The notes under the pieces were generated by a model. The model was given only the letters and a program-made list of their open reading frames with translations, was not told the origin of the DNA and made no database searches. A stretch of DNA of 64,000 nucleotides, taken from Candidatus Omnitrophota bacterium (lineage in GTDB: Bacteria > Omnitrophota > Gorgyraeia > Duberdicusellales > 4484-171). The translations under genes were made by a program, and so were the position numbers. Location: contig PMCS01000009.1 in the NCBI GenBank assembly GCA_003154195.1, forward strand, positions 19,014-83,013, written 5' to 3'. Shown piece by piece: positions 769 to 61,511 of this stretch. Numbering within the stretch: position 1 is the first letter of the stretch; each line of letters begins with the position of its first letter.

Positions 769-1584
769 ATGAAAAGTTTAACAAAGATTTTAGTAATGGC
801 CTTGGTGATTGCCGCGGGCTTGGGTTTTCCATGCTTTGCGGAAAAAATTGTTGTCGAAGGCTCAACTACCGTTTTACCGATTGCTCAAAAAACTGCTGAA
901 GTATTTATGCAAAAAGACAGTAGCGCCGATATCTCGGTACGCGGCGGCGGTTCAGGCGTGGGCATAGCTTCTTTACTCGACGGTACCTGTGATATCGCCG
1001 ATTCTTCGCGGCCAATCAAGGATACCGAGCTCGATAAGGCAGTAACTAACGGCAAAGATATTAAGGCGCATGTTATCGCGATGGATGGGATTGCCGTTAT
1101 CGTTAACCCGGCAAATAAAGTGGGGGCTTTAACCAAGAAACAGGTAAGGGATATTTATACCGGTAAAATTTCCAACTGGTCGCAAGTTGGCGGTGATGAC
1201 CGTAAAATCGTAGTTATTTCGCGCGATACGTCGAGTGGAACATTCGAGGCATTTGGAGAACTGGCTTTAGACAAACAAAAAGTAAGGCCGGATGCTTTAA
1301 TGCAGGCATCGAATCAGGCGATCGCGTCTACCGTAGCGCGGACACCCGACGCTATCGGTTATGTAGGTTTAGGCTTTCTTAGTTCCAGTGTCAAAGCTTT
1401 AGAGCTAGATGGCGTCGTGCCTTCGAAGGAAACTGTACTCAATAACAAATATTCTATTGGCAGGCCGCTATTTATGTATACCAATGGTAAGCCTAAGGGT
1501 TTGGCAAAAGATTTTATTGATTTTATAAAGAGTCCGGAGGGGCAAACGCTTGTGGACGAAGAAGGCTTTGTAAGCCTACATTAA
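769..1584 (+). CDS. pstS: Phosphate ABC transporter substrate-binding protein PstS (operon 1)
   Basis: Signal peptide followed by a PBP fold with GSGVG, SRP and TNG motifs; strong RBS aaggagg; first gene of a pstSCAB-phoU cluster. Confidence 0.85.
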   Translation: MKSLTKILVMALVIAAGLGFPCFAEKIVVEGSTTVLPIAQKTAEVFMQKDSSADISVRGGGSGVGIASLLDGTCDIADSSRPIKDTELDKAVTNGKDIKAHVIAMDGIAVIVNPANKVGALTKKQVRDIYTGKISNWSQVGGDDRKIVVISRDTSSGTFEAFGELALDKQKVRPDALMQASNQAIASTVARTPDAIGYVGLGFLSSSVKALELDGVVPSKETVLNNKYSIGRPLFMYTNGKPKGLAKDFIDFIKSPEGQTLVDEEGFVSLH

Positions 1585-1620
1585 TAACGCCGGCGTAATT
1601 GCTGGTTTATTATATATAAC

Positions 1621-1663
1621 GAAGCGCGCGGTGGTTCCGCCCTTTCCTTCCGCCGCGCGCTTC
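1621..1663 (+). promoter_or_regulatory. Perfect 11-bp GC hairpin (gaagcgcgcgg…ccgcgcgcttc) in the pstS-pstC intergenic region; likely partial terminator or mRNA stabiliser
   Basis: Seen in the sequence; the position matches the known pstS/pstC intergenic attenuator arrangement. Confidence 0.4.
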
Positions 1664-1709
1664 TCTTATTGTAAAAATATATGTGATTGCTTGACGCAGG
1701 TAGAAACAG

Positions 1710-2594
1710 ATGACAAAAATAAAAGAACGAATAATAAAAGGGATTTTTACGATTTTGGCATTCGCTTCCCTCATATTTTTAGTAGGCATTATTATTGTTT
1801 TATTCAGAGAAGCGCTGCCGATTTTTAAAAAGATCAAGGTATTTGAATTCATCTTCGGTAAATTCTGGTATCCGACCTATGACCCGGCGGAATTTGGAAT
1901 CTTACCTTTAATTCTGGCTTCAATCTGGGTTTCAACTGGAGCAATGTTAATTTGTGTGCCGTTGGGCGTGGGCAGCGCATTGTATCTGAATGAACTTGCC
2001 AGTCCTGGACAAAAAGCAATACTTAAGCCGTTAGTCGAGATTCTGGCGAGTATCCCTTCGATTGTATACGGTTTTTTTGGGATGGCGATACTTGCGCCAT
2101 TTTTGCAGAATTTATTTCATTTATCGATAGGCTTGTGTGCATTTACCGCCGGGTTGACTTTAGGGATTATGGCGACACCGGTAGTCTGCAGCATTGCCGA
2201 GGATGCATTAAGCTATGTGCCGAGATCGTTTAGAGAAGCGTCTTTTGCCGTAGGCGCTAACCGGTGGCAAACGCTGATCAAAGTGGTTATACCGGCTGCC
2301 GGATCGGGGATTTCGACGGCGATAATTTTAGGGATGAGCCGGGCGATAGGTGAAACCATGACAGTTTTAATGGTGGCCGGCGGGGCCGCGGTTATCCCTA
2401 AGTCATTCTTTGATCCGGTCCGGCCGATGACGGCAGCGATTGCCGCGGAAATGGGCGAGGCTCCTATGGGCAGTGACCACTATCATGCTTTGTTCGCCAT
2501 TGCGCTGATATTATTTTTGGTTACTTTTATCTTTAACGTTATCGCGGAAGTTGTCAGCCGAAAATACAGGATTAAATTGGGTCTATCAGGATAA
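1710..2594 (+). CDS. pstC: Phosphate ABC transporter permease PstC (operon 1)
   Basis: Multi-TM permease with an EAA-like loop (…ALSYVPRSFREASFAVGANRWQT…); operon context. Confidence 0.85.
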   Translation: MTKIKERIIKGIFTILAFASLIFLVGIIIVLFREALPIFKKIKVFEFIFGKFWYPTYDPAEFGILPLILASIWVSTGAMLICVPLGVGSALYLNELASPGQKAILKPLVEILASIPSIVYGFFGMAILAPFLQNLFHLSIGLCAFTAGLTLGIMATPVVCSIAEDALSYVPRSFREASFAVGANRWQTLIKVVIPAAGSGISTAIILGMSRAIGETMTVLMVAGGAAVIPKSFFDPVRPMTAAIAAEMGEAPMGSDHYHALFAIALILFLVTFIFNVIAEVVSRKYRIKLGLSG

Positions 2595-2680
2595 CCGGAA
2601 AAATGAGAAAACTCATTTTTCCGGTTAGGTGCTGCCTGACGGCAGGGAAAAATATAGTTCAGCGTTTAAAAACTAAAATT

Positions 2681-3571
2681 ATGAAAAAAGAGGATAAAAG
2701 AACTATCTGCCGACAGGCAGACAGTTCCCGAATTAAACAAAAAATAGGCTTTGGCATCATATCCCTGTGTATGTTTACTACAGTCTTGTTTTTGTTCGCG
2801 ATAATTTGCTTTATCGGTGTAAAGGGGATAAGGGTTATTTCATGGGAATTTTTAACGCAGGCACCGCGTGATTCTATGACTGCCGGCGGTGTAGCTCCCG
2901 CTATCGTGGGAACAATTTGCCTTACGTTAGGCGCAGTATTATTTTCTTTTCCTTTAGGGGTAGCCTGCGCGATATATCTTTGTGAGTATACGCCAAAGAG
3001 CTACATCGTGAATATCATAAGAATCAGTATTAATAATCTTGCCGGCGTGCCTTCGGTGGTGTTTGGTCTTTTTGGATTAGCGGTTTTCGTCAAATATTTT
3101 GGTTTCGGGGTGTCGATACTCTCAGGAAGCCTTGCTTTGGGGATTGTGGTTTTACCGGTGATTATTTCCGCGGCCCAGGAGGCGCTTTTGGCCGTACCCC
3201 AATCATTAAGAGAAGCATCGTTGGCCGTGGGCGCAACAAAGTGGCAGACAATAAAAAAGTTAGTTCTACCGGCGGCAATGCCGGGTATCTTGACTGGGGT
3301 TATTTTAAGCATCGGAAGAGTAGCCGGTGAAACCGCTCCAATTTTATTTACCGCAGCCGCCTTTTATTTAAAAGGTTACCCCAAATCTATTTTTTCCGAA
3401 GTGATGGCTCTGCCATATCATATTTATGCGCTTATGACCGAAGGTTCCCATCCGGATCAACAAACTGCGATAGCTTATGGCTGTTGTTTGATCCTTTTAT
3501 GTTTAGTTTTGTTGGTGTCAGCAATAGCGATTTTTATCCGCCAGAAGCAGAGGAGCTATTATCATGGATAA
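2681..3571 (+). CDS. pstA: Phosphate ABC transporter permease PstA (operon 1); the ORF is open from 2603 but ATG 2681 is the likelier start
   Basis: PstA-like TM core with the …[24 protein letters not shown]… loop; overlaps the pstB start. Confidence 0.8.
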
Positions 3572-4331
3572 CCAAACGTCGGTAAAGATTAAGGCACAGG
3601 ACGTAAATTTTTTTTACGGGAAACACCAGGCATTGAAAAATATAAAACTGGATGTTTTAGCCAATCAGGTTACTGCGATTATCGGCCCTTCGGGCTGCGG
3701 AAAATCTACCTTTATCCGGCTGCTTAATCGTATGAACGAATTAGTCTCCAATACTGTTTTAACCGGAAGAATTTATCTGGATGGGCAGGATATATTCGCT
3801 TCTTGCGTTGATTCAGTCGAGATTAGGCGGCGTGTCGGGATGGTATTTCAAAAACCCAACCCCTTTCCCAAGAATATATTTGAAAACATAAGTTACGCTC
3901 TCGAGGTTAATGGCATTAAAAATAAACAATTTGTCGAAGAAAGGGTGATAGAATCTTTCAAGAAGGCGGCGTTATGGGATGAGGTGAAAGACCGGCTTCA
4001 TGACAGCGCGCTAAAATTATCCGGCGGACAACAGCAAAGGCTTTGCATTGCCCGTTGCCTGGCGATCAAGCCGGAGGTGATTTTGTTCGACGAACCCTGC
4101 GCCAGCCTCGACCCTATTTCGACGCGCAAGATCGAAGAGCTGATTCTGGAGTTGAAAAAAGATTATACTATTGCTATAGTTACGCACAATATGCAGCAGG
4201 CGGCAAGGGTATCTAACTATACTGGTTTTTTTCTTTTAGGCGAGTTGATCGAGTTTGATAAAACTGAAACGATATTCAAGTCTCCCAAAGATCAGCGGAC
4301 AGAAGATTATATTACAGGGAGGTTCGGATAA
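3564..4331 (+). CDS. pstB: Phosphate import ATP-binding protein PstB (canonical; operon 1)
   Basis: Walker [11 protein letters not shown]-loop VFQKPNPFP, signature LSGGQQQRL, Walker B ILFDEP, H-loop VTHNM. Confidence 0.9.
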
Positions 4332-45664: not shown

Positions 45665-45730
45665 AACTTAATTTCTTAATCCGTGAAAATCTGCGTAATC
45701 TGTGGATGAAAATATTTTTAGTTTTTAATT
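45665..45730 (+). repeat. Partial copy of the ~90-bp ATCTG-triple-repeat element (…aatccgtgaaaatctgcgtaatctgtggatg…)
   Basis: Matches the cores at 54254, 55111 and 58351. Confidence 0.4.
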
Positions 45731-45747: not shown

Positions 45748-46212
45748 TTACCTGTCTTTCTTTTCATTATCCTCGATTTTTTCCACATCGATAACATTAT
45801 CGTATTCGTTTCTCTCCGGCCCGGGCGAAGCGGAATATGTTGTTTTATGAAAACAAAAAGTTTTTCCGGCCTTCGGCCTGGTAAAAGCATCCGCGACAGA
45901 GCTGATAACGCTGAACCACAACGCGCCCCAGAATGCCGCCCAAAAGTCAACGACATTAAACCCTTTCACCAGCTTCGCGGCCAGGTAAAACATAAAACCG
46001 TTGATGAAAAAAGTAAAAATTCCCAGTGAAAATATATTCAGCGGTAGTGTCAACGCCAATATCAACGGCCGCAAAAACGCGTTAACCAGGCCCAGGGTCA
46101 AAGCCGCCACCGCCAGCGTGTCCCAGTGGTCAACGGTTATTCCGGGTGAGATTTTTATCACCAAGAACAAAACCAGGATATTAAGAAACCATTTTATAAT
46201 AAATTTGTCCAT
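45748..46212 (-). CDS. Phage-holin-family-4-like / small 4-TM membrane protein
   Basis: …LILALTLPLNIFSLGIFTFFINGFMFYLAAKLVKGFNVVDFWAAFWGAL… pattern. Confidence 0.5.
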   Translation of the reverse strand: MDKFIIKWFLNILVLFLVIKISPGITVDHWDTLAVAALTLGLVNAFLRPLILALTLPLNIFSLGIFTFFINGFMFYLAAKLVKGFNVVDFWAAFWGALWFSVISSVADAFTRPKAGKTFCFHKTTYSASPGPERNEYDNVIDVEKIEDNEKKDR

Positions 46213-50563: not shown

Positions 50564-53410
50564 TTAAATACCGCAGGCGCTTTTAAAGGAGCAGTAGGAA
50601 CAGCGTTGTTCATCAGGAACAGCCACAAAATCCACTTCCGGATTGATAATCTCCTCGAAAATAAAATCCAGCGCCCGCAGGCACACCGTCATCACTTCTT
50701 CCCGCTGTTTCGCTTCCGCGGGACGGATAAAAGGAAGCAGGTCCAGGGTGCGGATATTGTAAAGCTGAGCGTTGACCTGTTTTCCGGGAAATTGGCGGGA
50801 AATAAAATAGTAATAAATCGGCAGTTGGAACGACTTCATACTCTCGCTGATATTTTGCCGGGTCAGCTCCATTTTGGAAAGCCCGGAAAGGCTCTTGGGT
50901 TGGACGTCGCTGGAACCGGTCTTATAATCGATGATAACAATCGAATCGTCGCGCAATTCATCGACCCGGTCGGCGGTATAGCCGAAAGTAACCTCGTGTT
51001 TGCTCAGTTTCATCACCCCTTCGATTCGCTCTTCCAGGGCAAGGATCTTCTTAACATCGCGCCGCTTCTCTTCTTCCAGGAATTTGCGCATCCGGTCCTG
51101 CAAGATCCCCCACAACAAAAACGAATCGGATTTCATCCTCCGCTTGATCGTCTCGTTAAAGCGCTTTTCCATCACGTTAAAAAAATAGCGGGAGAATTCT
51201 TCATCGATTATCGGTTGAACTCCTTTGAACTTACCGAGGGTTTCTTCCAGCAATTCGTGAATAAAAGTGCCGATACTATCAGCCCGCGGGTCATCAAGCA
51301 GCCCCCGCTTTTCTTTCAGCCCCAGGCAATAAGTATAATAAAATTTCAACGGGCAGGATAAATAAACATTCAGGCGGCTGGCGGAATAACGGTCGGCCAA
51401 TAACCGCGCAACCATCTCCGGGGTTTTCTTCGCGGTATTTTGCGGCAAACTCGGCGCCAGGTTAAACGCCGCGCGCTGCGGCTCCAGCACATCGAGCCGT
51501 CCCGTTTCCTTCTGTCTCTGCCAGATCAACTCTTCGACAAAACGGCTCTTTTCTTTCTCTTTGGTCTCCTCATAAATCAAATGGACGCGTTTAGCGCCGT
51601 TGATCAGGCGCATAAACTGGTAGCGCTGGATTTCCTCTTCTTTTTCCAGGCGGTTTATCCCCAACTGCAGCATCACTTCCCGCGGGATCAGCGGCTCGTA
51701 AATCTTAAGCCGGGGCATTACCGATTCATTTAAATCCAAAGCAATCACATTATCGAAATTAAGCGAACGGGTCTCAAACAACCCTAAAATCTGCAGCCCT
51801 TTAAGCGGTGAACCGGAAAACGATAAGAGTTCGCTCTTTATCTTCTGCAAAAAAATCAGCCACAGTTCTTCGGGATTAAACTTTTCATGCTTAAAACTTA
51901 ATTCCGCCAGCTCGTCCTTAACGTTAAAGAGTTTTTCCAACGCCTTAATATTAAACGGGTAATTGCCGATATAACTTTTCCGGCTCAGCGTGTCTAAAAG
52001 CGCTTCCAGCACTCGGCTAAATCCGGCAAAATCATTTGTCGCTTCCCAGCCGCGCAACACCGTATCGTGGACATATTTTAAAATCGCCCGGCAATCATCA
52101 AGGCTGACCTTGATCTCGCCGGCCTTTAAAATCTCCAGGGCCCCGCGGTAGATCACCGTTTCCTTCTCAATTGCTTCTAAATCAATGAATAAAGTTCCGC
52201 CGATATCCGATTCGATTTCACCGTCCAACGCCTCTTCCAATTTGTGGACGAGCACCCGCGTCGCCTCATGGCCAAACCCGGCGTCGATATTTTTGATCAA
52301 GGGATGGCGCATCACCTGCAGATAATCCCGCGCGTAGTATTTATCCCCCTTCTTACTCTCCACCGCCCGCACCAGATATTCGAACAAACTGCACACCACA
52401 CTGCGCTTTAACGGATAGCCCATCGATACATTAAACTCATCGACATTGGAAGAAATCTCCGACAACAACGGCACTACTGCTTCCGGTTGGGGCAGTAAGA
52501 TAAGGGTCTTCTCTTTATCGCTGATGGTGTTTATGATATCGCGGCAGATGCAGACCTGGGAGTGAAGGTCAAAGCCTTCATGCAAAGAAAGATTAACTTT
52601 GACGCTTTGACGCTTTGACGCGCTTAATGCGCCGGGAACAATTGAGGAGCCGAATAACTTGGCATTGTGGGCTAAAACTGGCCATTCGGCTTCGTCGCCC
52701 TGGAAAATACAGCTCCCCTTTCTCGAATCGAGCACGGCTTTAATAATCGCGCCCTCGGTGGCGTGGAGATAAAAAAAGTTACAGAACAATACCGCGTCGA
52801 AGTCATCTAAATTATTCCCGGCGGCCAGAGCGCCGGCCGCTGAATAACGCTTGCCGCGCGCCATCACGCCCTGCTTAGCCAATTCCTCATGATAAAGCTT
52901 GCGCAACACTCCCATCGACTCAAGAAGCTTATTAATACTCTCCGGAACATCAAACCCGATTTGCGCGCTGGCCTTGATCGAAAGTAACTTCTCATCGGGA
53001 ATTCCTTCCAAATCAAGCTGTTCGATGAACGAAACCACTTCCCGCGCCCAGGGCAAGAATTCATTAAAGCTTTTCTTCTCCTTTAACACCCCGGATGCGT
53101 TCTTCTTCGCCAATTTATACAAAATATAACCGGCATCTAAATCGGATATCCCGGCCAGCGGTTTCCCCTGCCCGACCAACCAATCGACAAAATCATCCAT
53201 GGAAAAAACCTTAGGCGGGACGAAACTGGTGCCGATTCGATTAGCGAGTGCTTTGCGCAAAAACAAGCCGGGACGTTTGCCGCCAAAGACACAGGCGACG
53301 CGGGAATAGTCGGTGGTCTTGCCGAAGCGGTCGAGAATGATATCCGCCAACCGCTCAATAAAATTCTCGCCGAAAGATAGGGTTATCGATTTAATATTAT
53401 TTGCGCCCAT
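50564..53410 (-). CDS. AddB-like PD-(D/E)xK nuclease-family protein with C-terminal Fe-S cysteine cluster; ORF is open to 53446
   Basis: C-terminal …IIDYKTG… nuclease motif and CSYCSFKSACG cysteines; 950-aa size typical of AddB/RexB-type subunits. Confidence 0.65.
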   Translation of the reverse strand: MGANNIKSITLSFGENFIERLADIILDRFGKTTDYSRVACVFGGKRPGLFLRKALANRIGTSFVPPKVFSMDDFVDWLVGQGKPLAGISDLDAGYILYKLAKKNASGVLKEKKSFNEFLPWAREVVSFIEQLDLEGIPDEKLLSIKASAQIGFDVPESINKLLESMGVLRKLYHEELAKQGVMARGKRYSAAGALAAGNNLDDFDAVLFCNFFYLHATEGAIIKAVLDSRKGSCIFQGDEAEWPVLAHNAKLFGSSIVPGALSASKRQSVKVNLSLHEGFDLHSQVCICRDIINTISDKEKTLILLPQPEAVVPLLSEISSNVDEFNVSMGYPLKRSVVCSLFEYLVRAVESKKGDKYYARDYLQVMRHPLIKNIDAGFGHEATRVLVHKLEEALDGEIESDIGGTLFIDLEAIEKETVIYRGALEILKAGEIKVSLDDCRAILKYVHDTVLRGWEATNDFAGFSRVLEALLDTLSRKSYIGNYPFNIKALEKLFNVKDELAELSFKHEKFNPEELWLIFLQKIKSELLSFSGSPLKGLQILGLFETRSLNFDNVIALDLNESVMPRLKIYEPLIPREVMLQLGINRLEKEEEIQRYQFMRLINGAKRVHLIYEETKEKEKSRFVEELIWQRQKETGRLDVLEPQRAAFNLAPSLPQNTAKKTPEMVARLLADRYSASRLNVYLSCPLKFYYTYCLGLKEKRGLLDDPRADSIGTFIHELLEETLGKFKGVQPIIDEEFSRYFFNVMEKRFNETIKRRMKSDSFLLWGILQDRMRKFLEEEKRRDVKKILALEERIEGVMKLSKHEVTFGYTADRVDELRDDSIVIIDYKTGSSDVQPKSLSGLSKMELTRQNISESMKSFQLPIYYYFISRQFPGKQVNAQLYNIRTLDLLPFIRPAEAKQREEVMTVCLRALDFIFEEIINPEVDFVAVPDEQRCSYCSFKSACGI

Positions 53411-53415
53411 ATAAT

Positions 53416-54000
53416 TCAATAAAATTGTCCTGTAGGGGCCGGGCATGCCCGGCCCGTTAATATCATGTCTGGTTCGCGATTCGGTGATTTAAGATTTATT
53501 ATGTTTTCATTATCATCAGCCCATTTTGCAGGGTTATTAATTATGTATTCACGTATATTTTTTAATGATTCTTCCGTACGTATATGATGGTCATAGAAAA
53601 AACGCTGCCATTTAAATGAATTATTATTCAATTTATTAATTTGCCGCGAAACGGCTGACTTGAACGACCCGATTATAACCGATAAATTGTTATTTTTTTT
53701 ATTTTGATTAACGGGACGGGCATGCCCGTCCCCTACAGGACTATTGATTATTATTATCCCATGTATATGGTTCGGCATAACGATATATTCATCTAACTCA
53801 ACGTTGGGACAATGGCACGCAATCTCTTGCCAGGCTTTCCTGACGATTACTCCATATTCGTTTAAAACCATGCAATCACCTTTAATCTGGCCGAATAATT
53901 CTTTGTGATTATACGTACAAATCGTCACATAATAATACCCTGCCTTGGAATAATCATATCCTTTTAATCTGATTGCTTTTCGTTTCGGAAATTCTTGCAT
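53416..54000 (-). CDS. REP-associated tyrosine transposase (RAYT), copy 2
   Basis: KRKAIRLKGYDYSKAGYYYVTICT…, HUH MPNHIHGII, catalytic Tyr IREYIINNPAKW. Confidence 0.8.
   Translation of the reverse strand: MQEFPKRKAIRLKGYDYSKAGYYYVTICTYNHKELFGQIKGDCMVLNEYGVIVRKAWQEIACHCPNVELDEYIVMPNHIHGIIIINSPVGDGHARPVNQNKKNNNLSVIIGSFKSAVSRQINKLNNNSFKWQRFFYDHHIRTEESLKNIREYIINNPAKWADDNENIINLKSPNREPDMILTGRACPAPTGQFY
53429..53460 (+). repeat. Perfect 20-bp GC palindrome GGGCCGGGCATGCCCGGCCC (with cctgtag… flank) inside the RAYT2 3' coding region
   Basis: Seen in the sequence; self-complementary. Confidence 0.65.
53708..53739 (+). repeat. Second perfect 20-bp GC palindrome GGGACGGGCATGCCCGTCCC (inverted partner of 53429-53460) inside the RAYT2 coding region
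   Basis: Seen in the sequence; encodes an SPVGDGHARPVNQ insertion between the HUH and Tyr motifs. Confidence 0.65.
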
Positions 54001-54210: not shown

Positions 54211-54300
54211 TGTGTTATTCGTTGTTAAAATCTTTCCCCGCTTTTTCTTTCTTAATCTGTGAAAATCTGCGTAATCTGTGGACAAAATTTTTTGTTTTCT
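54211..54300 (+). repeat. ~90-bp conserved intergenic element with triple ATCTG core (aatctgtgaaaatctgcgtaatctgtggac) followed by an A/T tract; copy A
   Basis: Copies at 55081-55160, 58307-58394, partial at 45665-45730. Confidence 0.5.
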
Positions 54301-54387: not shown

Positions 54388-54804
54388 TTATTTTAACTTT
54401 TTATTTTTTGTTTCTAAAGAAAAAACGAGTTTGGGATAATCGATAGTAAGGATGAAGCTGCTCAAAAAGCTTTTTACGCCAAGCAGCGGCACATGAAGGT
54501 TGGGCATGAAATCTATCAAAATATTATTAATTTCGAAATCATCAATCTTGACACAAACCGTATGGGAATAGGCAAGAGTTTTGCCGTTACCGGTATTAAT
54601 TTCTTTAGCAAAACCGGACTGTAAATCATGCCCTAAAATCGGAGCATACAAAGCCGGTAAGGCGCACTCATCGGCTCCGGTATCGATCAGGCCGTAAGCT
54701 TTAACGCTTTTGCCGGTATGAGGATTTTTAATAATTATCGCCAGCCATGGACGCGGGGTATCTTGAGGAGAGAATTTGGAGAAAGGTAAATTTCTTAAAT
54801 TCAT
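54388..54804 (-). CDS. Retropepsin-like (clan AA) aspartic protease
   Basis: LIDTGADECALP active-site motif. Confidence 0.7.
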   Translation of the reverse strand: MNLRNLPFSKFSPQDTPRPWLAIIIKNPHTGKSVKAYGLIDTGADECALPALYAPILGHDLQSGFAKEINTGNGKTLAYSHTVCVKIDDFEINNILIDFMPNLHVPLLGVKSFLSSFILTIDYPKLVFSLETKNKKLK

Positions 54805-54992
54805 TAGTAAATTTGAACCACATCATTTAAAGGGACAAAAATCACAACCGGTTCTTTACAGCCTTTATGCAAAGCTTTTTCGTAAGCTTCCTGGGGCGTA
54901 TCGCCGTCGCCGACAACGGTATTTTTCCCAAAATCTTTTATCGCGACATACCTGCCCCTGTATTTTTTATCTTTTATCAATACCTGCGTCAT
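54804..54992 (-). CDS. Small DUF5678-like protein (62 aa); start/stop-overlapping partner of the aspartic protease gene
   Basis: …YRGRYVAIKDFGKNTVVGDGDTPQEAYEKALHKGCKEPVVIFVP… pattern. Confidence 0.45.
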   Translation of the reverse strand: MTQVLIKDKKYRGRYVAIKDFGKNTVVGDGDTPQEAYEKALHKGCKEPVVIFVPLNDVVQIY

Positions 54993-55080
54993 ATATTTTC
55001 TTCTTTTTTTAAGATGGTAATTATACCGTGATGCTAAAATTCTAAAGGCTATGGCATTTTTGTCAATGAATATTTACCCC

Positions 55081-55160
55081 ATAATTCTCCTTCATCCTTC
55101 TTGCTTTACTCTGTGAAAATCTGTGTAATCTGTGGACAAATTTTTTTCGTTTTATCTATC
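55081..55160 (+). repeat. ~90-bp ATCTG element, copy B (ctctgtgaaaatctgtgtaatctgtggac)
   Basis: See 54211. Confidence 0.5.
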
Positions 55161-55161
55161 T

Positions 55162-55968
55162 TTACAAATCAGCCCTGTACTTCGCAATCAACGACGGAAC
55201 GACCGTATCGGCGTTAGCAATCAAATCGGCCTGGGCGTCTTCGAATAAAAACGGACGCAATTCTTCCGCCTGCTTTTTTAATTCCGCCGGCGAAAAGCTC
55301 TTAACTCTTTTAGCAATAACCTCCAGCGGGTTTTCCTTGATCCCCAACGAAGCCAGGACTTTCCGGTTAATCGGATAATTTTGGGAAAGCATAAAAATTA
55401 TATCGTACAGGTGCCGCGCCCGCGTTTTTTTAACCAGGGCGTCGATTTTATCGGCAAACAGCGCGCTCTTGTCGGTGCAGCCGCAGGTAAAAATCTCCCC
55501 AAAGCCGTTGATTACTTCGCTTTCCCTGACGATTTTCCATTTGGGCGTATTCGTCTCAATTTTAATGACAATCCCGGCTTTCTTCGAATACGCCGATTTA
55601 ACATTATACGCTTTTTCGATTTCCGGAAAGATTAAATTCCCCGCGAAAATATTACGCCAATGCTTAAAATTAACATCGGCAATAATGTTAGAACGGGCCA
55701 GCTCGGTTTTTACCTTATCCAGCAAGGTTTCAAACTGCCCCCCGGAAAGCTCATCGCAGTTAAAATCAAGGTCTTCAGAAAACCGTTTTAGATTATGCAC
55801 CAGCCGCAGGTATGTCCCGCCGGTAAAATACAGATGCTTACCGGTATCGGCCTTATAAATCTCTTTTAAAATCAATACCTGCAAATATTCGCGCAATACC
55901 CCGCGCATCTTATTACCCGGCATGCCCCGCAGTTTTGCCTGTTCGGTTAAACTCTCATAGGTCAGCAT
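55162..55968 (-). CDS. AbiEii/AbiGii-family nucleotidyltransferase toxin
   Basis: …REYLQVLILKEI…LYFTGGTYLRLVHNLKRFSEDLDF… family signature. Confidence 0.75.
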   Translation of the reverse strand: MLTYESLTEQAKLRGMPGNKMRGVLREYLQVLILKEIYKADTGKHLYFTGGTYLRLVHNLKRFSEDLDFNCDELSGGQFETLLDKVKTELARSNIIADVNFKHWRNIFAGNLIFPEIEKAYNVKSAYSKKAGIVIKIETNTPKWKIVRESEVINGFGEIFTCGCTDKSALFADKIDALVKKTRARHLYDIIFMLSQNYPINRKVLASLGIKENPLEVIAKRVKSFSPAELKKQAEELRPFLFEDAQADLIANADTVVPSLIAKYRADL

Positions 55969-56569
55969 AAATCACCTCTTCTACGTCGATATTATACTGC
56001 TTAGCGTATTTTTCCAGTTTCTTCTTATTCATCCCCGCGATAATGTTTTTATCCATCCGCTCTTCGCCTAAGATTGCCCGCTTCTTCCCGCGAAAGGTTT
56101 TAAAATGGACAAAATCGATTAAAGCCTTTTCCGGTTCGGCAATCAGGACATCGAAATCTCCCTGCCGTTCCACATAATAACCGCCAAACGCCTCTTTTTT
56201 TATCGTCCGGTAAATAAATAACCCGTGCAGGTTCCTGAATTTACGGGTAGGCTTGGTAGTAATCGAAGTCACCGCCATCGATACTTCCGGAATAACGCTG
56301 TAATGGGATAAAGCCGTCTCCAGGGAAACATACGACGGCGCGTATAAGCGGTTGGCAATATGCATATCGGAAATAGCATATTCCTCAGGATAAATCAATT
56401 CATAAAAATCTCGCTTCAATGCCCGGATAAACCCCTTTCCTTTCCAGCGATAAAGCAGTTTTTTAAGGCTCTCTTTTTTCTCCCGCGGGTAAAAAGAAAG
56501 CACATCCTCGCTGGTGAAAAGATAGTATTTTTTTCCCGATAATGTTTTATAAAATTCTTCGAATTTCAT
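55955..56569 (-). CDS. AbiEi-family antitoxin / transcriptional regulator
   Basis: Sits directly upstream of and overlaps AbiEii; AbiEi-like sequence. Confidence 0.65.
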   Translation of the reverse strand: MKFEEFYKTLSGKKYYLFTSEDVLSFYPREKKESLKKLLYRWKGKGFIRALKRDFYELIYPEEYAISDMHIANRLYAPSYVSLETALSHYSVIPEVSMAVTSITTKPTRKFRNLHGLFIYRTIKKEAFGGYYVERQGDFDVLIAEPEKALIDFVHFKTFRGKKRAILGEERMDKNIIAGMNKKKLEKYAKQYNIDVEEVIYADL

Positions 56570-56623: not shown

Positions 56624-58252
56624 TTAATGTGGGTTGTCAAGGGCGTACAACGCTTCCCGCGAAAGCTTAAGGGCTTCGTCAGCCAGGTATTCATCGAGCA
56701 GCATTTGCCGGTTGATAAAGCCGTCAGGCGTGATTTCGATGATGCGATTAGCCAGGGTCTGGATAAACTGGTGGTCCTGCGAAGAAAAAAGCAATGTTCC
56801 GGTAAAATTCTCCAGGCCTTTGTTGAGAGACGTGATCGATTCCATATCCAGGTGGTTGGTGGGTTCATCCATCACCAATACATTCGCGCCGGTGAGCATC
56901 ATCCGCGCGAACATGCAGCGGACCTTTTCGCCGCCGGAAAGCACGCTCACGCTCTTAAGCGTCTCGTCCCCGGAAAATAACATCTTCCCCAGGAAACTGC
57001 GGATAAAATCCTCCTCCTTATTGCCGGAATACTGCCTCAACCAATCAATAAGGTTCAAGCCGGACTCAAAATATTTTTTATTATCTTTGGGGTAGTAGGC
57101 GACCAACGCTGACGCGCCCCACTTATACGTACCACTGCCGGGGGTTAATTGGCCCATGATCGTCTCAAACAACGCCGTCTTGACCAGGTCATTGCGGCCT
57201 AAAAACGCGATGCGCTCTCCTTTTTGCACGCTCAAGGTAAAGTCATTAAGCATCGTCCGGCCATCGGCCGCGATACTCATGTGTTCGATATCCAGAATAT
57301 CATTACCCGCTTCTTTCTCGCTTTTAAAATAAATATGCGGGTAGCGGCGCGACGAGGGCTTAATATCATCCAGGGTCAGTTTCTCCAGAAGTTTTTTACG
57401 GCTGGTGGCCTGCCGCGATTTTGAAGCATTAGCGCTGAAGCGCGCGATAAATTCCTGCAATTCCTTGCGCTTTTCCTCGATCTTTTTGTTCGAATCGGAA
57501 CGCTGGCGCAAAACTAATTGGCTCGATTCATACCAGAAAGAGTAATTACCCGCATACAGCTGTATCTTGCCAAAATCAAGATCGGCGATATGAGTGCACA
57601 CCTTGTCGATAAAATGGCGGTCATGGGAAATAACGATAACGGTATTCTTAAACTCATATAAAAACTCCTCAAGCCATAAGTTAGTTTCGACATCTAAATG
57701 GTTAGTCGGCTCATCCAGAAGTAATATATCCGGGTTCCCGAACAGCGCCTGCGCTAAAAGCACGCGCACTTTCTGGCTCGATTCAAGCTGTTTCATCTTT
57801 AAACCATGCAGCTTTTCCTTAACGCCCATCCCGCTCAACAGCTTTGCCGCCTCACCTTCGGCATCCCAGCCATTGAGTTCGCCGAATTCATGCTCCAGCT
57901 CAGCGGCAAGCATGCCGTCAGCGTCGCTGAAATCAGGCTTGGCATATAAGGCGTCCTTTTCAGTCATGATCTCATAGAGCCGTTTATGGCCCATGACAAC
58001 GGTAGCCAGCGCGGTATATTCATCATAGGCGTACTGGTCCTGCTTGAGCATCGATAAACGTTTACGCGGCTCAACACTCACTTCTCCGGCGCTGGGCTCG
58101 ACTTCTCCGGCCAAAATCTTCAGAAATGTAGTTTTGCCGGAACCATTGGCGCCGATAAGGCCATAGCAATTACCCGCCGAAAACGTAGCATTCACATTTT
58201 CGAACAAAGGTTCTTTGCCAAATCGTAAGGTAACATTAATCGCGGATATCAT
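56624..58252 (-). CDS. ABC-F family ATPase (two tandem ABC domains, no TMD)
   Basis: Two Walker A sites (GANGSGKTT, G.NG.GKT), two LSGGE/LSGGEK signatures, inter-domain linker. Confidence 0.85.
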   Translation of the reverse strand: MISAINVTLRFGKEPLFENVNATFSAGNCYGLIGANGSGKTTFLKILAGEVEPSAGEVSVEPRKRLSMLKQDQYAYDEYTALATVVMGHKRLYEIMTEKDALYAKPDFSDADGMLAAELEHEFGELNGWDAEGEAAKLLSGMGVKEKLHGLKMKQLESSQKVRVLLAQALFGNPDILLLDEPTNHLDVETNLWLEEFLYEFKNTVIVISHDRHFIDKVCTHIADLDFGKIQLYAGNYSFWYESSQLVLRQRSDSNKKIEEKRKELQEFIARFSANASKSRQATSRKKLLEKLTLDDIKPSSRRYPHIYFKSEKEAGNDILDIEHMSIAADGRTMLNDFTLSVQKGERIAFLGRNDLVKTALFETIMGQLTPGSGTYKWGASALVAYYPKDNKKYFESGLNLIDWLRQYSGNKEEDFIRSFLGKMLFSGDETLKSVSVLSGGEKVRCMFARMMLTGANVLVMDEPTNHLDMESITSLNKGLENFTGTLLFSSQDHQFIQTLANRIIEITPDGFINRQMLLDEYLADEALKLSREALYALDNPH

Positions 58253-58394: not shown

Positions 58395-61300
58395 TTATTT
58401 TATCTCCTCCACTTCCCCACTATCAAAATAAACCAGATACCCCTTTATCTTCTTACCCGGATATATCTCCCCCACAATTTCTTTATATTCTTTTACCTGC
58501 TCGACATGCGCCGCGAAATTATCCTTCGAACTCTTAAAATCGATCAGCACCGCATCCTCCGCCACAATCAACCGGTCAATGCGTTTTAAATTGCCCCGTT
58601 TGTCGGCTACTTCGTATTCGCAAAAGACCAGCGCTTTATCCGTATAGAAAAATGGTTTTAAATCCGGCTGTTTCAATAAAGTGAGCGCCTTCTTCTCGTA
58701 AACGCTAAAATCATCAATTTGCGGAAATAATATTTTGGCATCGTTGATTGCCCGCGCCACCGCTTCTTTTTCTTTTCCCTTCGCCGGCGCCGTAATCCGG
58801 GAAAAAATCGCGTGCAAGACCGTTCCTTCTAAAATCACCTGCCGGCGGCACAGGCTTCCCTCGTCGCCGAATTCTTCGCGCAATAGTTTAATCCAGTTGC
58901 CATAACAGGAAGGCTTGATATACTCCGCCATATCGCTTTTAGCCTCTGACTTTAATCCCGCGACGGGCTTACCCAGCTCGACGTTAGCGCCAGGAAAAAA
59001 TAACCGGGCAAGGTTAGCGGCGTTAGCGCTCTTTTTCGGCAGAAAAGCATAAATCTCATCTTTGGCGCGGGTTAACGCGACATAGATATTATTTAATTCA
59101 TCGACGCAAGCCCGGGCGTAAGCGGCCTCATATTTTGCCGCCAGGGTTTCGCTGAAAAGACAATGGGCCTGGGTGATACGCAATAACCCTAAATCCGGGG
59201 CGTGAGCCTGGTCCACATAAGCCGACTTCATCTTACCGTCGGCAGGGTTGATGTCCATACGTAAAAACGGGATGACCACCACATTATATTCCAGGCCCTT
59301 AGCCTTATGGACGGTCAGCACTTTAACTGCCTCACTAAGCCTGGCGTTAACAAAAAAATCTTCTTCGGGGAAATCGCTCTCGAAAAACTTTAAGAAATCG
59401 CCGAGCCCCGGATAATCATTTTCCTGTTTTTTTATCACCTCTAAAAGCTTCATAAAAAATCCCTGGCTTTGGGGAAAAAGCCGGCCCAGTTCGAATTTCG
59501 CGTAAATATCCACCGTCAGTTCGTAGTTAGAAATAAATCCGACGCTGCGGAAAAATTCATCGAAAAACTTACCCCAGAGCGCGGGGTATTTTTTCCGGAA
59601 TAACCGGTATAGCCGCGCCTCCGGCAATTCCTTAGCCTTACGGGAATTAGTGCCGAATAAAAATCCGGCGGCTTCCTCGCGCGGCAAGCCGGCAGCGTTC
59701 GTAAAAATATCGCTTAAAATAAACAGAGCGAAACTGTTATCGTCGATCGGCGAATGCAGGAATTTGAGCAGATTCACCAGGGCGGCGACATGGGGATTGC
59801 GCCGGACATCAAGCGTCTTCTCCGACTCCACGGGAATACCCGCTTCAATCAACCAGGAACTGACCGCCTCGACGTCGTTATTATCGCGGCAGAGGAACGC
59901 GATGTCTCCCAGGGAAAAACGCTTCCGAGCGGAGGCGACGATCTCTAAAATCTTAGGCCGGATAAAATCATTACGCGCCTGGTTGCTGTCGGCATCGACG
60001 CGCTCGACGCGCACATACCCGCCGTTTTTACCGAAAGATACTTTTTGATGGGCATTACCGAAGGTATCGAGAATCTCCCGGCGCGCCTGGGCGCTAAGGC
60101 CAAAATCGTCGCCCGCCAGCGTTGCGGCTAAATTATCCCGCGAAAAGATGTGGTTGTTAAATTCAACGATTTCCTGCCGGCTGCGCCAATTGGTATCCAG
60201 TATCGAAGTTTGCGCGCCGAAACGGCCATAGCCACGCCGGACCTCGTCGAACAGCCGGGCCTCACCGCCGCGGAAGCGGTAAATCGCCTGCTTCCGGTCG
60301 CCGACGTAGAAAAACGTCCCGCCCGCGGAAAGAGCGTCTTCGACCATCAACTCTAAATTACGCCACTGTAACGAGCTCGTATCCTGGAACTCATCGATCA
60401 AATAATGCCGGTAACGCGCGGAAAGACGGTAATAAATCTCCGCCACGCTCAACCCCTCTTCGCCAAAAAGCGAACGCGCGAAGCGGTTAAGCTGCTCTAA
60501 AAACAGGACATCGTCCTTGCGGGAAAAATCTTCGAAGTAACGCTGGGCCTGCGCGAACAGCCGGACATAAGGGTTATACGCCACGGTCGCGTCAAGTTCA
60601 GCGAGGCCGGTGATTTTACGCCGTAGCGCCTGCCACTTTTTCACGAAACCGGCGGGCGCGATTTTCTTCTTATTCATCGGCGGTTCGTCCTGGGCTAAAA
60701 GCTTCGATAAATTGGCGATATCGAAAAAATCGTCGTGTTTTTCCAGGAACCGGCCGAGCCACCCGCCAAACGGGCCGTTGATACCCTCGGGAAGATGATT
60801 CTGCAGATCCTGAAGCTGGGCGAATATTTCTTTTTTCGCGGCAAGCACGTCTTTAGAGCCGCCTTTATAAGGGGCGAATTCGCCGCCGTAACAATTAGTC
60901 AGCGCGAACAATCCGCGCAGCATCTCTAAAATATTTTCTTTGGGGAACCAGCCGGTCCGCGCCTCGACAAAGAGATAATGGCGCAGAAACTCGGTAAAAA
61001 TTCCCAGAAGTTCTTTGTCCGAAACCGTCTCATCGACCGCTTTATCGAAAGCGTATTCGATATAATCGGCATAGCCGCGCCGAATGCCGAAACTGGCGGA
61101 ACGGCCGATATTTAAAGCGCAGCCCAAAAGCAAAGCGTTGATAAACGAATCGATTGTCTGGACACTGAAAAAATTATAATGGCGGATGAGTTCGTCTAAA
61201 ATCGCGCGGGCGCGCTCCGGCGATTCTTTTTCGGATAGGTTTAAAGCATTTAGGATATCCTGTTTTTCCTGGGGGCTGGTAAACTTATCCAGAGCGATTT

Positions 61301-61511
61301 TCTTCAAAAACTCTAAAATCCTTTCTTTCATCTCCACCATCGCTTTATTGGTGAAGGTTATCGCGAGAATATTGCGTAAAGGGCTGCCGCCCGGCGGAAG
61401 GCCGCGGTCAAAGATAAGCTCCAGGTATCGCTTAGCCAGGCAGTAAGTCTTACCTGAACCGGCGGAAGCTTCTACGATAAAAACATGGGCCTTTTCGGAT
61501 ACTTTCTCCAT
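58395..61511 (-). CDS. AddA-like UvrD/Rep-family helicase with C-terminal PD-(D/E)xK nuclease domain
   Basis: N-terminal FIVEASAGSGKT Walker A, UvrD helicase motifs, C-terminal …RIDRLIV…VLIDFKSS nuclease motif. Confidence 0.8.
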   Translation of the reverse strand: MEKVSEKAHVFIVEASAGSGKTYCLAKRYLELIFDRGLPPGGSPLRNILAITFTNKAMVEMKERILEFLKKIALDKFTSPQEKQDILNALNLSEKESPERARAILDELIRHYNFFSVQTIDSFINALLLGCALNIGRSASFGIRRGYADYIEYAFDKAVDETVSDKELLGIFTEFLRHYLFVEARTGWFPKENILEMLRGLFALTNCYGGEFAPYKGGSKDVLAAKKEIFAQLQDLQNHLPEGINGPFGGWLGRFLEKHDDFFDIANLSKLLAQDEPPMNKKKIAPAGFVKKWQALRRKITGLAELDATVAYNPYVRLFAQAQRYFEDFSRKDDVLFLEQLNRFARSLFGEEGLSVAEIYYRLSARYRHYLIDEFQDTSSLQWRNLELMVEDALSAGGTFFYVGDRKQAIYRFRGGEARLFDEVRRGYGRFGAQTSILDTNWRSRQEIVEFNNHIFSRDNLAATLAGDDFGLSAQARREILDTFGNAHQKVSFGKNGGYVRVERVDADSNQARNDFIRPKILEIVASARKRFSLGDIAFLCRDNNDVEAVSSWLIEAGIPVESEKTLDVRRNPHVAALVNLLKFLHSPIDDNSFALFILSDIFTNAAGLPREEAAGFLFGTNSRKAKELPEARLYRLFRKKYPALWGKFFDEFFRSVGFISNYELTVDIYAKFELGRLFPQSQGFFMKLLEVIKKQENDYPGLGDFLKFFESDFPEEDFFVNARLSEAVKVLTVHKAKGLEYNVVVIPFLRMDINPADGKMKSAYVDQAHAPDLGLLRITQAHCLFSETLAAKYEAAYARACVDELNNIYVALTRAKDEIYAFLPKKSANAANLARLFFPGANVELGKPVAGLKSEAKSDMAEYIKPSCYGNWIKLLREEFGDEGSLCRRQVILEGTVLHAIFSRITAPAKGKEKEAVARAINDAKILFPQIDDFSVYEKKALTLLKQPDLKPFFYTDKALVFCEYEVADKRGNLKRIDRLIVAEDAVLIDFKSSKDNFAAHVEQVKEYKEIVGEIYPGKKIKGYLVYFDSGEVEEIK

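What the first reader, a model, noticed from the sequence alone, without database searches (positions are those of the whole stretch)
54388..54992. Two-gene module: small DUF5678-like protein translationally coupled to a retropepsin-like aspartic protease
The genes overlap (stop/start at 54804) and sit in a defence/mobile island between AbiE and a RAYT. Bacterial clan-AA proteases with a tiny co-transcribed partner are poorly characterised. The arrangement resembles a toxin-antitoxin or protease-inhibitor pair and is a candidate novel defence or addiction module.
Basis: inference. Interest (0 to 1): 0.5.

Follow-up and report, generated by a model that had tools for sequence, protein, structure and literature searches.

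The report
DUF5678–retropepsin protease toxin-antitoxin-like module
A tiny protein of unknown function and a retrovirus-type aspartic protease form a strictly conserved, horizontally mobile two-gene cassette that behaves in genomes like a toxin–antitoxin pair, which would make it the first such pair with an aspartic-protease toxin, but no experiment has tested this.

Summary
On the minus strand, a 62-aa DUF5678 gene (54804..54992) and a 138-aa retropepsin-like protease gene (54388..54804) share one base (TAATG). They lie between an AbiEi/AbiEii pair and a RAYT-like gene.

- **Pairing:** it is conserved. All 79 assessable protease loci from many phyla have DUF5678 directly upstream, mostly with a -1 or -11 nt overlap. 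In the reverse test, 71 of 79 DUF5678 loci have the protease downstream.
- **Mobility:** no third gene is conserved and the neighbours are heterogeneous, often toxin-antitoxin (TA) pairs. The module's GC is 39-40% against 49-50% in the flanking genes.
- **Co-evolution:** the two proteins co-evolve (Mantel r 0.78).
- **Decay:** it is one-sided. About 18 of 66 loci with an intact DUF5678 have a broken or missing protease. Only 1 of 78 intact proteases has a damaged DUF5678.
- **Protease:** the model has a retropepsin fold with invariant DTGA, flap and LLG motifs.
- **DUF5678:** it has no known fold. Its conserved C-terminal tail is modelled with low confidence.

Best reading (confidence about 0.5): a type II-like TA or addiction module, with the protease as toxin and DUF5678 as protein antidote. 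A dedicated defence role is not supported. I found no literature on the pair. Toxicity, complex formation and targets are untested.

The parts
54804..54992 (-). DUF5678 gene (62 aa), the proposed antidote/antitoxin. Modelled core: strands at residues 15-18, 26-30 and 49-52, helix at 33-42.
54807..54836 (-). Conserved C-terminal tail of DUF5678 (residues 53-62, VPLNDVVQIY). Proposed, by inference only, to be the protease-binding segment.
   Evidence: P54, I61 and Y62 are invariant and K56 and V59 nearly so. The tail has the lowest model confidence, about 50-75. In most family representatives the domain ends at the protein's C-terminus.
54388..54804 (-). Retropepsin-like (clan AA) aspartic protease gene, 138 aa, soluble. 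The proposed toxin.
   Evidence: ORF. PF13975 at 28.8 bits. AF2 pLDDT 89.8. Foldseek best hits are Rickettsia APRc 5c9f/5c9d (E 4e-7, TM up to 0.75), then retroviral proteases. Hydropathy stays below the usual transmembrane threshold of about 1.6: maximum 19-residue Kyte-Doolittle mean is 1.57.
54673..54684 (-). Catalytic motif D41-T42-G43-A44 (GAT ACC GGA GCC).
   Evidence: Read from the sequence. G43 and A44 are invariant and D41 and T42 nearly invariant in A1. DTGADEC is conserved at 90% or more in 74 loci.
54583..54594 (-). Presumed flap tip T71-G72-N73-G74, between strands 65-70 and 75-87.
   Evidence: Invariant in A1.
54478..54486 (-). L107-L108-G109, the hydrophobic-hydrophobic-Gly motif of clan AA (ILG in HIV protease).
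   Evidence: L107 and G109 are invariant and L108 nearly so. The DTG/ILG template is named in PMC2642776.
54802..54806 (-). TAATG stop/start overlap (translational coupling).
   Evidence: Sequence. In 77 homologous loci the gap is -1 nt in 39, -11 in 14 and 0 to 3 in 16.
55039..55066 (-). Promoter-like site TTGACA-16 nt-TAGAAT (11/12 matches), ending 47 nt upstream of the DUF5678 ATG.
   Evidence: Consensus scan. The number of sites in the region is not above the shuffled expectation, so this is only a candidate.
55106..55152 (.). Upstream copy of a 47-nt dispersed direct repeat that brackets the module.
   Evidence: It is 89% identical to the copy at 54252-54298.
54252..54298 (.). Downstream copy of the same repeat, 102 nt after the protease stop. 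A third copy lies at 45681-45710.
   Evidence: No stable hairpin. No Rfam match.

Best explanation
The two genes form an autonomous, horizontally transferred, type II-like toxin-antitoxin (addiction) cassette.

**Shown**
- The pair is a bicistronic unit with conserved translational coupling. A candidate own promoter lies upstream in this window.
- The downstream product has a retropepsin fold with all catalytic and structural motifs conserved.
- The upstream 62-aa DUF5678 protein co-evolves with it.

**Inferred**
- The protease acts as a homodimer in the cytoplasm and is harmful when free, cleaving one or more host proteins.
- DUF5678 is made first and in coupled amounts. It binds the protease directly and keeps it inactive.
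- Binding most plausibly goes through the conserved C-terminal tail (...VP.K..V[Q/H]IY-COOH), which is flexible in isolation. The tail would either occupy the substrate cleft as a product-like ligand or block the terminal beta-sheet needed for dimerisation.
- Loss or degradation of DUF5678 would release the protease. That would penalise loss of the cassette (addiction), or possibly respond to stress or infection.
For: 1. **Strict co-occurrence and order.**
   - All 79 assessable protease loci have DUF5678 immediately upstream on the same strand (79/80; the one exception is cut by a contig end). The loci come from Omnitrophota, Planctomycetota, Elusimicrobiota, Nitrospirota, Desulfobacterota, Margulisbacteria, Spirochaetota and others.
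   - The reverse test gives 71/79.
   - A distant DUF5678 (P0383) pairs with a correspondingly diverged protease.
   - Both IMG/VR loci are also paired.
2. **Conserved coupling.** The gap is -1 or -11 nt, or at most 3 nt, in 69 of 77 loci.
3. **No conserved third gene.** The 131 nearest neighbours hit 170 different Pfam families, ranging from housekeeping genes to HepT, HicA and integrases. Several loci sit inside TA clusters with MNT-HEPN, VapBC, RelE, DUF433/PIN-like or UPF0175-DUF3368 pairs.
4. **Signs of horizontal transfer.** Identity is 55-73% across phyla. Module GC is 39-40% against 49-50% for the flanking ABC-F and AddA/AddB-like genes.
5. **Co-evolution with a faster upstream partner.** Mantel r is 0.78 (0 of 2000 permutations reach it). 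Mean identity is 48% for DUF5678 and 60% for the protease.
6. **One-sided decay.**
   - Among loci with an intact DUF5678, 18 of 66 have a missing, truncated, frameshifted or D-to-Y protease.
   - Among loci with an intact protease, 1 of 78 has a frameshifted DUF5678. Fisher p = 2e-6.
   - Validated TA systems decay toxin-first: 185 toxin-only against 8 antitoxin-only cases in PMC13617665.
7. **The protease looks catalytically competent**.
8. **No DUF5678-protease fusions** appear among the 150 best representatives listed, out of 742 clusters.
Against: - No experiment and no complex model exists.
- No aspartic protease is a known TA toxin (own knowledge). The Makarova 2009 survey lists none, so there is no precedent for the toxic activity or its target.
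- The two anchored samples come from different collections, and the protease-anchored one keeps the best-scoring matches. The asymmetry is therefore partly exposed to ascertainment.
- Most genomes in the top 80 appear to carry one copy rather than many.
- The MI covariation test did not single out the tail or any protease surface.
- The family is absent from PLSDB plasmids, where addiction modules are usually common. This may only reflect that the host phyla are uncultured.
Confidence: 0.5

Rival explanations
1. A non-toxic protease with an obligate partner. DUF5678 would be its dedicated substrate or precursor, a trans-acting pro-segment or chaperone, or a substrate adaptor. Two analogies from my own knowledge: the spoIIGA-sigE operon, where an aspartic protease is encoded next to its substrate, and Ddi1, where a small N-terminal domain accompanies the retropepsin domain. 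The cassette would then perform a small regulatory proteolysis task.
For: - Strict pairing, coupling and co-evolution are equally expected for an enzyme and its partner.
- DUF5678 lacks any antitoxin-type DNA-binding fold.
- The conserved free C-terminus could be a recognition or processing element.
Against: - A housekeeping function does not predict random, TA-rich and housekeeping-interrupting contexts, atypical GC or patchy cross-phylum spread at high identity.
- If DUF5678 only served the protease, it should decay along with it. Instead an intact DUF5678 outlives the protease in about 27% of anchored loci, and the reverse almost never happens.
- The whole DUF5678 sequence is conserved and folded, unlike a leader/core precursor.
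Confidence: 0.2
2. A dedicated anti-phage abortive-infection system. DUF5678 would hold the protease inactive until a phage cue displaces or destroys it. The protease would then cleave essential host or phage proteins.
For: - In this window the module lies next to AbiEi/AbiEii.
- A few other loci have AbiEii, SoFic, PDC-S01/02 or type III methyltransferase neighbours.
- Two (pro)phage contigs carry the module, one beside an integrase.
- Many TA modules turn out to be defence systems (PMC10440598 and PMC10865869 abstracts).
Against: - Neither protein matches a PADLOC model.
- No more than about ten of the 131 immediate neighbours match defence models, and most neighbours are housekeeping or TA genes.
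- There are no matches in INPHARED phages, and only 2 among 2.9 million IMG/VR contigs.
Confidence: 0.15
3. Reversed roles: DUF5678 is the toxin and the protease is an antitoxin that degrades it.
For: Toxin-first gene order exists in some TA families such as HigBA, HicAB and MqsRA (own knowledge). A protease could in principle remove a toxic peptide.
Against: Intact DUF5678 genes persist without any functional protease in about 18 loci, including a second orphan copy in L167. That would be lethal if DUF5678 were the toxin.
Confidence: 0.03

Closest known systems
Type II toxin-antitoxin systems (e.g. VapBC, RelBE, HicAB; general architecture)
   Same: - A small upstream gene with stop/start overlap onto a larger downstream gene.
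- An autonomous cassette in variable, often TA-rich contexts, with horizontal spread.
- A faster-evolving upstream partner with a flexible conserved C-terminal segment.
- Downstream-gene-first (toxin-first) erosion.
   Different: - The putative toxin is a clan AA aspartic protease, not a nuclease, kinase or transferase.
- The putative antitoxin has no RHH, AbrB, HTH or Phd fold.
- Toxicity and neutralisation have not been demonstrated.
APRc (RC1339) of Rickettsia conorii and other prokaryotic single-domain retropepsin-like proteases (COG3577/COG5550; TIGR02281, TIGR03698)
   Same: Best structural match (5c9f/5c9d, E 4e-7, TM up to 0.75, 27-29% identity). The DTG, flap and hydrophobic-hydrophobic-Gly signature is shared.
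   Different: - Scores are far below the TIGR02281 and TIGR03698 cutoffs: 27 against 58 and 22.5 against 57.
- Hydropathy stays below the usual transmembrane threshold, whereas APRc and TIGR02281 proteins are membrane-anchored (own knowledge).
- This family has a conserved 35-residue N-terminal extension (PF...RPWLP) and an obligate small partner gene.
Retroviral proteases (HIV-1, EIAV, HTLV-1 PR)
   Same: Same fold and catalytic motif. An upstream ORF overlaps the protease ORF in the -1 frame, superficially like gag-pro.
   Different: - No slippery heptamer is present.
- The gap varies from -49 to +97 nt among homologues, so the arrangement is termination-reinitiation coupling, not frameshift fusion.
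- There is no retroelement context.
Ddi1 / SASPase (eukaryotic retropepsin-like proteases with accessory domains)
   Same: A retropepsin domain works together with a small accessory module.
   Different: - The accessory is a separate polypeptide.
COG2856/ImmA-type Zn-protease modules associated with TA systems
   Same: A protease encoded in a small mobile stress/TA-type module (PMC2701414).
   Different: - It is a metalloprotease that pairs with Xre HTH proteins.
- It is thought to cleave a repressor or antitoxin rather than to act as the toxin.
- It is unrelated in fold.

Membership tests
Clan AA retropepsin-like aspartic protease | Catalytic Asp-Thr/Ser-Gly-Ala motif | tested here: met
   D41-T42-G43-A44 at 54673-54684. 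G43 and A44 are invariant and D41 and T42 nearly invariant among homologues.
Clan AA retropepsin-like aspartic protease | Retropepsin half-barrel fold with a flap hairpin and a hydrophobic-hydrophobic-Gly motif | tested here: met
   AF2 pLDDT 89.8. Foldseek probability 1.0 to APRc and to HIV, EIAV and HTLV proteases. TGNG tip between strands 65-70 and 75-87. L107-L108-G109 conserved.
Clan AA retropepsin-like aspartic protease | Homodimerisation and proteolytic activity | not testable with these tools
   Needs biochemistry or multimer modelling.
Pfam PF13975 gag-asp_proteas / PF13650 Asp_protease_2 | Score at or above the gathering threshold | tested here: met
   PF13975 scores 28.8 against 28.2, which is borderline. 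PF13650 scores 21.4 against 24.3, below threshold. Most homologues carry precomputed hits to both families.
NCBIfam TIGR02281 (clan_AA_DTGA) / TIGR03698 (clan_AA_DTGF) | Score at or above the curated cutoff | tested here: not met
   27.0 against 57.95 and 22.5 against 57.35. The protein is related to these subfamilies but is not a member of either.
Pfam PF18929 DUF5678 | Score at or above the gathering threshold | tested here: met
   40.1 bits against 23.2, covering residues 9-54.
Type II toxin-antitoxin system | Bicistronic operon of two small genes with tight coupling | tested here: met
   1-nt overlap here. The gap is -1, -11 or 0 to 3 nt in 69 of 77 homologous loci.
Type II toxin-antitoxin system | Autonomous mobile unit: variable neighbourhood, patchy phyletic spread, frequent location in TA islets | tested here: met
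Type II toxin-antitoxin system | Toxin-first decay, with orphan antitoxins tolerated and orphan toxins not | tested here: met
   18/66 against 1/78, Fisher p = 2e-6. The benchmark is PMC13617665. Caveat: the two samples come from different collections.
Type II toxin-antitoxin system | The toxin inhibits growth and the antitoxin neutralises it through a protein-protein complex | not testable with these tools
   No multimer prediction was available. MI covariation was inconclusive.
Type II toxin-antitoxin system | Antitoxin with a DNA-binding domain that autoregulates the operon | tested here: not met
Known anti-phage defence systems (PADLOC-DB v2) | Match to a defence-system protein model, or consistent defence-island context | tested here: not met
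   No PADLOC hit for either protein. Only a handful of the 131 neighbours hit defence models.

The most novel reading that the evidence does not exclude
This is the founding example of a widespread, previously undescribed toxin-antitoxin (possibly abortive-infection) family.

- The toxin would be a cytoplasmic retropepsin-type aspartic protease, a toxin chemistry not known in prokaryotic TA systems.
- The antitoxin would be a new 60-residue fold that inhibits the protease in trans through its free C-terminal tail, either as a cleft plug or as a dimerisation blocker.
- Such selfish, mobile retropepsin cassettes in bacteria and DPANN archaea would also be a plausible reservoir from which retroelement and Ddi1-type proteases were recruited.
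Probability: 0.4. Interest if true: 0.7.

Novelty: new variant of a known kind. Interest (0 to 1): 0.55.

Why it matters
- **A new toxin class.** If the protease is a toxin, the known repertoire of TA and abortive-infection effectors gains a mechanistic class, aspartic proteolysis. DUF5678 would also get its first function.
- **A natural inhibitor.** DUF5678 would be a genetically encoded protein inhibitor of a retropepsin. That is of interest for understanding, and perhaps engineering, inhibition of this fold by cleft binding or by blocking dimerisation.
- **Why it was overlooked.** The family is confined to uncultured lineages such as Omnitrophota, Planctomycetota, Nitrospirota, Elusimicrobiota and DPANN archaea. 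This likely explains its absence from the TA and defence resources I checked.
- **Easy to test.** The prediction can be checked with two small genes in a standard kill/rescue assay.

Tried and rejected
- **Chance ORF or untranslated small ORF:** rejected. The ORF matches Pfam, aligns with invariant positions across 54 sequences, and has dN/dS of about 0.3.
- **Programmed -1 frameshift fusion (gag-pro style):** rejected. There is no slippery site, and the spacing varies from -49 to +97 nt.
- **A conserved third component:** none found by all-against-all clustering of 407 neighbour ORFs.
- **Known defence system:** no PADLOC or PHROG match.
- **Rosetta-stone fusions:** none in the best 150 listed of 742 DUF5678 clusters. 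The one long hit, P0262, is a spurious repeat protein.
- **Structure with locus-derived sequences:** A complex could not be modelled.
- **Inter-protein MI/APC covariation (107 pairs, Neff 62):** top pairs were scattered, with no enrichment for the tail or for any protease region. Inconclusive.
- **The flanking 47-nt repeat as a terminator, REP hairpin or known RNA:** no stable or conserved fold and no Rfam hit.
- **Literature:**
  - Searches for DUF5678, COG5550, retropepsin with toxin-antitoxin, and the Pfam names found nothing on this pair.
  - The first word-index search with the 62-aa protein found only 2 hits and had to be repeated with a profile.

Full report
**1. Observation**

The window carries two ORFs on the minus strand: 54804..54992 (62 aa) and 54388..54804 (138 aa). 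The junction reads TAC TAATG AAT, so stop and start share the base at 54804.

The 62-aa product is a clear DUF5678 member (PF18929, 40.1 bits against a cutoff of 23.2). The 138-aa product just passes PF13975 gag-asp_proteas (28.8 against 28.2). It scores below cutoff for Asp_protease_2, RVP, TIGR02281 and TIGR03698.

AbiEii (55162..55968) and an AbiEi-like gene (55955..56569) lie upstream, and a RAYT/IS200-like gene (53416..54000) lies downstream. This islet of about 3.2 kb sits between an ABC-F ATPase plus an AddA-like helicase on one side and an AddB-like PD-(D/E)XK nuclease on the other. Its GC is lower: 37-46%, with the module at 39-40%, against 49-50% in those housekeeping genes.

A near-consensus promoter-like site (TTGACA-16 nt-TAGAAT) ends 47 nt before the DUF5678 ATG. 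The site count in the region is not above the shuffled expectation, so it is only a candidate.

**2. Is the pairing real?**

The protease belongs to a large family: 780 hits, with the listed ones 64-74% identical and named mostly from Omnitrophota, but also Poribacteria and Aenigmatarchaeota.

- **Protease-anchored test.** A scan of one genome per species returned 80 loci from many phyla. In 79 of them tblastn finds a DUF5678 homologue immediately upstream on the same strand. The one exception starts at a contig end.
- **Spacing.** The gap between the two genes is -1 nt in 39 loci, -11 nt in 14 and 0 to 3 nt in 16. Translational coupling is therefore itself conserved.
- **DUF5678-anchored test.** Among metagenome loci, 71 of 79 with enough downstream sequence carry the protease.
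- **Distant members.** A distant DUF5678 (P0383) is followed by a correspondingly diverged 133-aa DTGAS protease. The only two IMG/VR contigs with the protease also have the overlapping DUF5678 gene.
- **Co-evolution.** Pairwise identities of the two proteins are correlated (Mantel r 0.78, 0 of 2000 permutations reach it). DUF5678 evolves faster, with mean identity 48% against 60%.
- **Selection.** Both genes are under purifying selection, with dN/dS of about 0.30 and 0.17 at near-saturated dS.

**3. The parts**

*Protease.* The AF2 model is confident (pLDDT 89.8). Its best matches are the Rickettsia retropepsin APRc and then the retroviral proteases. The catalytic DTGA, the TGNG presumed flap tip and the LLG motif are invariant or nearly so. 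The maximum 19-residue hydropathy mean is 1.57, below the usual transmembrane threshold. The enzyme is therefore probably cytoplasmic, unlike membrane-anchored APRc and TIGR02281 proteins (own knowledge). A conserved N-terminal extension (PF...RPWLP) distinguishes the family.

**4. Context across genomes**

Clustering 407 neighbour ORFs found no recurrent third gene. The 131 nearest neighbours hit 170 different Pfam families. These range from homoserine dehydrogenase, GAPDH and glycosyltransferases to HepT, HicA and integrases.

Many loci are TA islets:

- MNT-HEPN, VapBC, RelE-like and DUF433/PIN-like pairs occur next to the module.
- In L167, UPF0175-DUF3368 and DUF4258/MqsA-like pairs sit beside two DUF5678 copies.

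Defence association is weak. Neither protein has a PADLOC hit, and only a handful of neighbours match defence models. The family is absent from PLSDB plasmids and INPHARED phages.

**5. Decay pattern**

In the DUF5678-anchored sample, 66 loci can be assessed.

| Protease state (DUF5678 intact) | Loci |
|---|---|
| Intact | 48 |
| Truncated, frameshifted or with catalytic Asp changed to Tyr | about 10 |
| Absent | 8 |

Two of the eight 'absent' loci keep an N-terminal protease remnant. L167 shows a truncated protease behind an intact DUF5678, plus a second orphan DUF5678.

In the protease-anchored sample, only one of 78 intact proteases has a frameshifted DUF5678 (L066). The contrast gives Fisher p = 2e-6.

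Experimentally validated TA systems decay the same way. In Photorhabdus, 185 copies had only the toxin pseudogenised and 8 had only the antitoxin defective (PMC13617665). One caveat applies: my two samples come from different collections, and the protease-anchored set keeps only the best-scoring matches.

**6. Interpretation**

The best-supported reading is a type II-like TA or addiction cassette. The retropepsin-like protease would be the toxin and DUF5678 the protein antidote.

The following are shown:

- gene order and coupling;
- autonomy of the cassette and signs of horizontal transfer;
- co-evolution of the two proteins;
- an intact catalytic apparatus;
- the asymmetry of decay.

The following are inferred:

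- the free protease is harmful;
- DUF5678 binds it;
- the conserved flexible C-terminal tail is the neutralising element, acting as a cleft plug or a dimerisation blocker.

I put this at about 0.5. The rivals are:

- **A non-toxic protease with an obligate substrate, pro-segment or adaptor (0.2).** It explains the pairing but not the mobile, TA-like distribution or the survival of DUF5678 without the protease.
- **A dedicated abortive-infection system (0.15).** It is compatible with the TA reading but not supported by the context statistics.
- **Reversed roles (0.03).** This is contradicted by the orphan DUF5678 genes.

**7. Comparison with known systems and novelty**

The protease is a clan AA retropepsin-like enzyme by motif and fold, but it is not a member of the curated TIGR02281 or TIGR03698 subfamilies. 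The module works like a type II TA system in every feature I could test, except for a DNA-binding antitoxin domain.

Neither the 2009 comprehensive TA survey nor any paper retrievable here links retropepsin-like proteases or DUF5678 to TA systems. A 2009 review states that little is known about prokaryotic single-domain clan AA peptidases. The library lacks most subscription journals, so prior description cannot be fully excluded.

I rate it a new variant of a known kind, with interest of about 0.55.

**8. Dead ends**

- Covariation between the two proteins was inconclusive.
- The 47-nt repeat that brackets the module has no fold and no Rfam match.
- afdb50 was unavailable.
- Complex prediction was not possible with the tools and caps available.

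Noticed in passing
window 54252-54298, 55106-55152 and 45681-45710: A dispersed direct repeat of about 47-60 nt. Read on the minus strand it is AAAAC.AAAAAA.TTTGTCCACAGATTACRCAGATTTTCACAGAKTAAG, with three CAGATT units about 10 nt apart. Each copy lies in intergenic DNA 22-102 nt after the stop of a minus-strand gene (AbiEii, the protease, and a holin-family gene). Two copies bracket the DUF5678-protease module, 854 nt apart. It has no stable hairpin and no Rfam hit, and it was found only in same-species contigs L081-L086. It could be a protein-binding iteron or a cassette boundary; its function is unexplained.
   Followed up: partly
window 53423-53461 and 53707-53745: A 39-nt inverted repeat (92% complementary) with a GC-rich palindromic core (GGGCCGGGCATGCCCGGCCC / GGGACGGGCATGCCCGTCCC), which looks like REP hairpins. 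Both arms lie inside the RAYT-like ORF 53416..54000(-). One encodes a ...VGDGHARPV... insert after the HxH motif and the other encodes the C-terminus. The length of this ORF varies between strains: 194, 180 and 170 aa in L081, L083 and L084.
   Followed up: no
window 50564-53446, 56624-58252 and 58395-61511: The AbiE / DUF5678-protease / RAYT islet (GC 37-46%) sits between an AddB-like PD-(D/E)XK nuclease on one side and an ABC-F ATPase plus an AddA/UvrD-like helicase on the other (GC 49-50%). The putative AddA- and AddB-like genes are thus separated by about 5 kb of mobile and ABC-F genes.
   Followed up: no
L167 (GCA_001830985.1, Thermodesulfovibrio MAG) 836-4015: A 4.6-kb TA islet. It holds DUF5678 with a truncated 96-aa protease remnant, a DUF433 gene, a UPF0175-DUF3368 pair, a second orphan DUF5678, and a DUF4258/MqsA-like pair. 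The eroded first module recurs in other samples: 11 contigs carry this DUF5678, and all four inspected keep the 96-aa remnant.
   Followed up: partly
L094 and L150 (metagenome loci): Full-length protease homologues with active-site substitutions: LIYTGADE (catalytic Asp to Tyr) in L094 and DTGVDE in L150. In both, the upstream DUF5678 is intact. They may be inactivated toxins kept as full-length ORFs.
   Followed up: no
L176 4810-5423 and L177 4747-5426 (IMG/VR contigs): These are the only two viral-collection contigs with the module. In L177 it lies directly upstream of a tyrosine integrase gene, at a prophage edge. In L176 it follows a large 869-aa gene. Both keep the 1-nt overlap.
   Followed up: partly
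one search hit list (P0181, P0233): Some DUF5678 proteins are named 'succinyl-CoA synthetase subunit alpha' or 'transketolase C-terminal domain' in their source databases. For proteins of 62-65 aa these are probably mis-annotations carried over from weak similarity to beta-alpha-beta fragments.
   Followed up: no
window 45748-46212 (-): This 154-aa ORF matches Phage_holin_4_2 (PF04020, E 1e-29). It lies just upstream of the third copy of the dispersed repeat.
   Followed up: no
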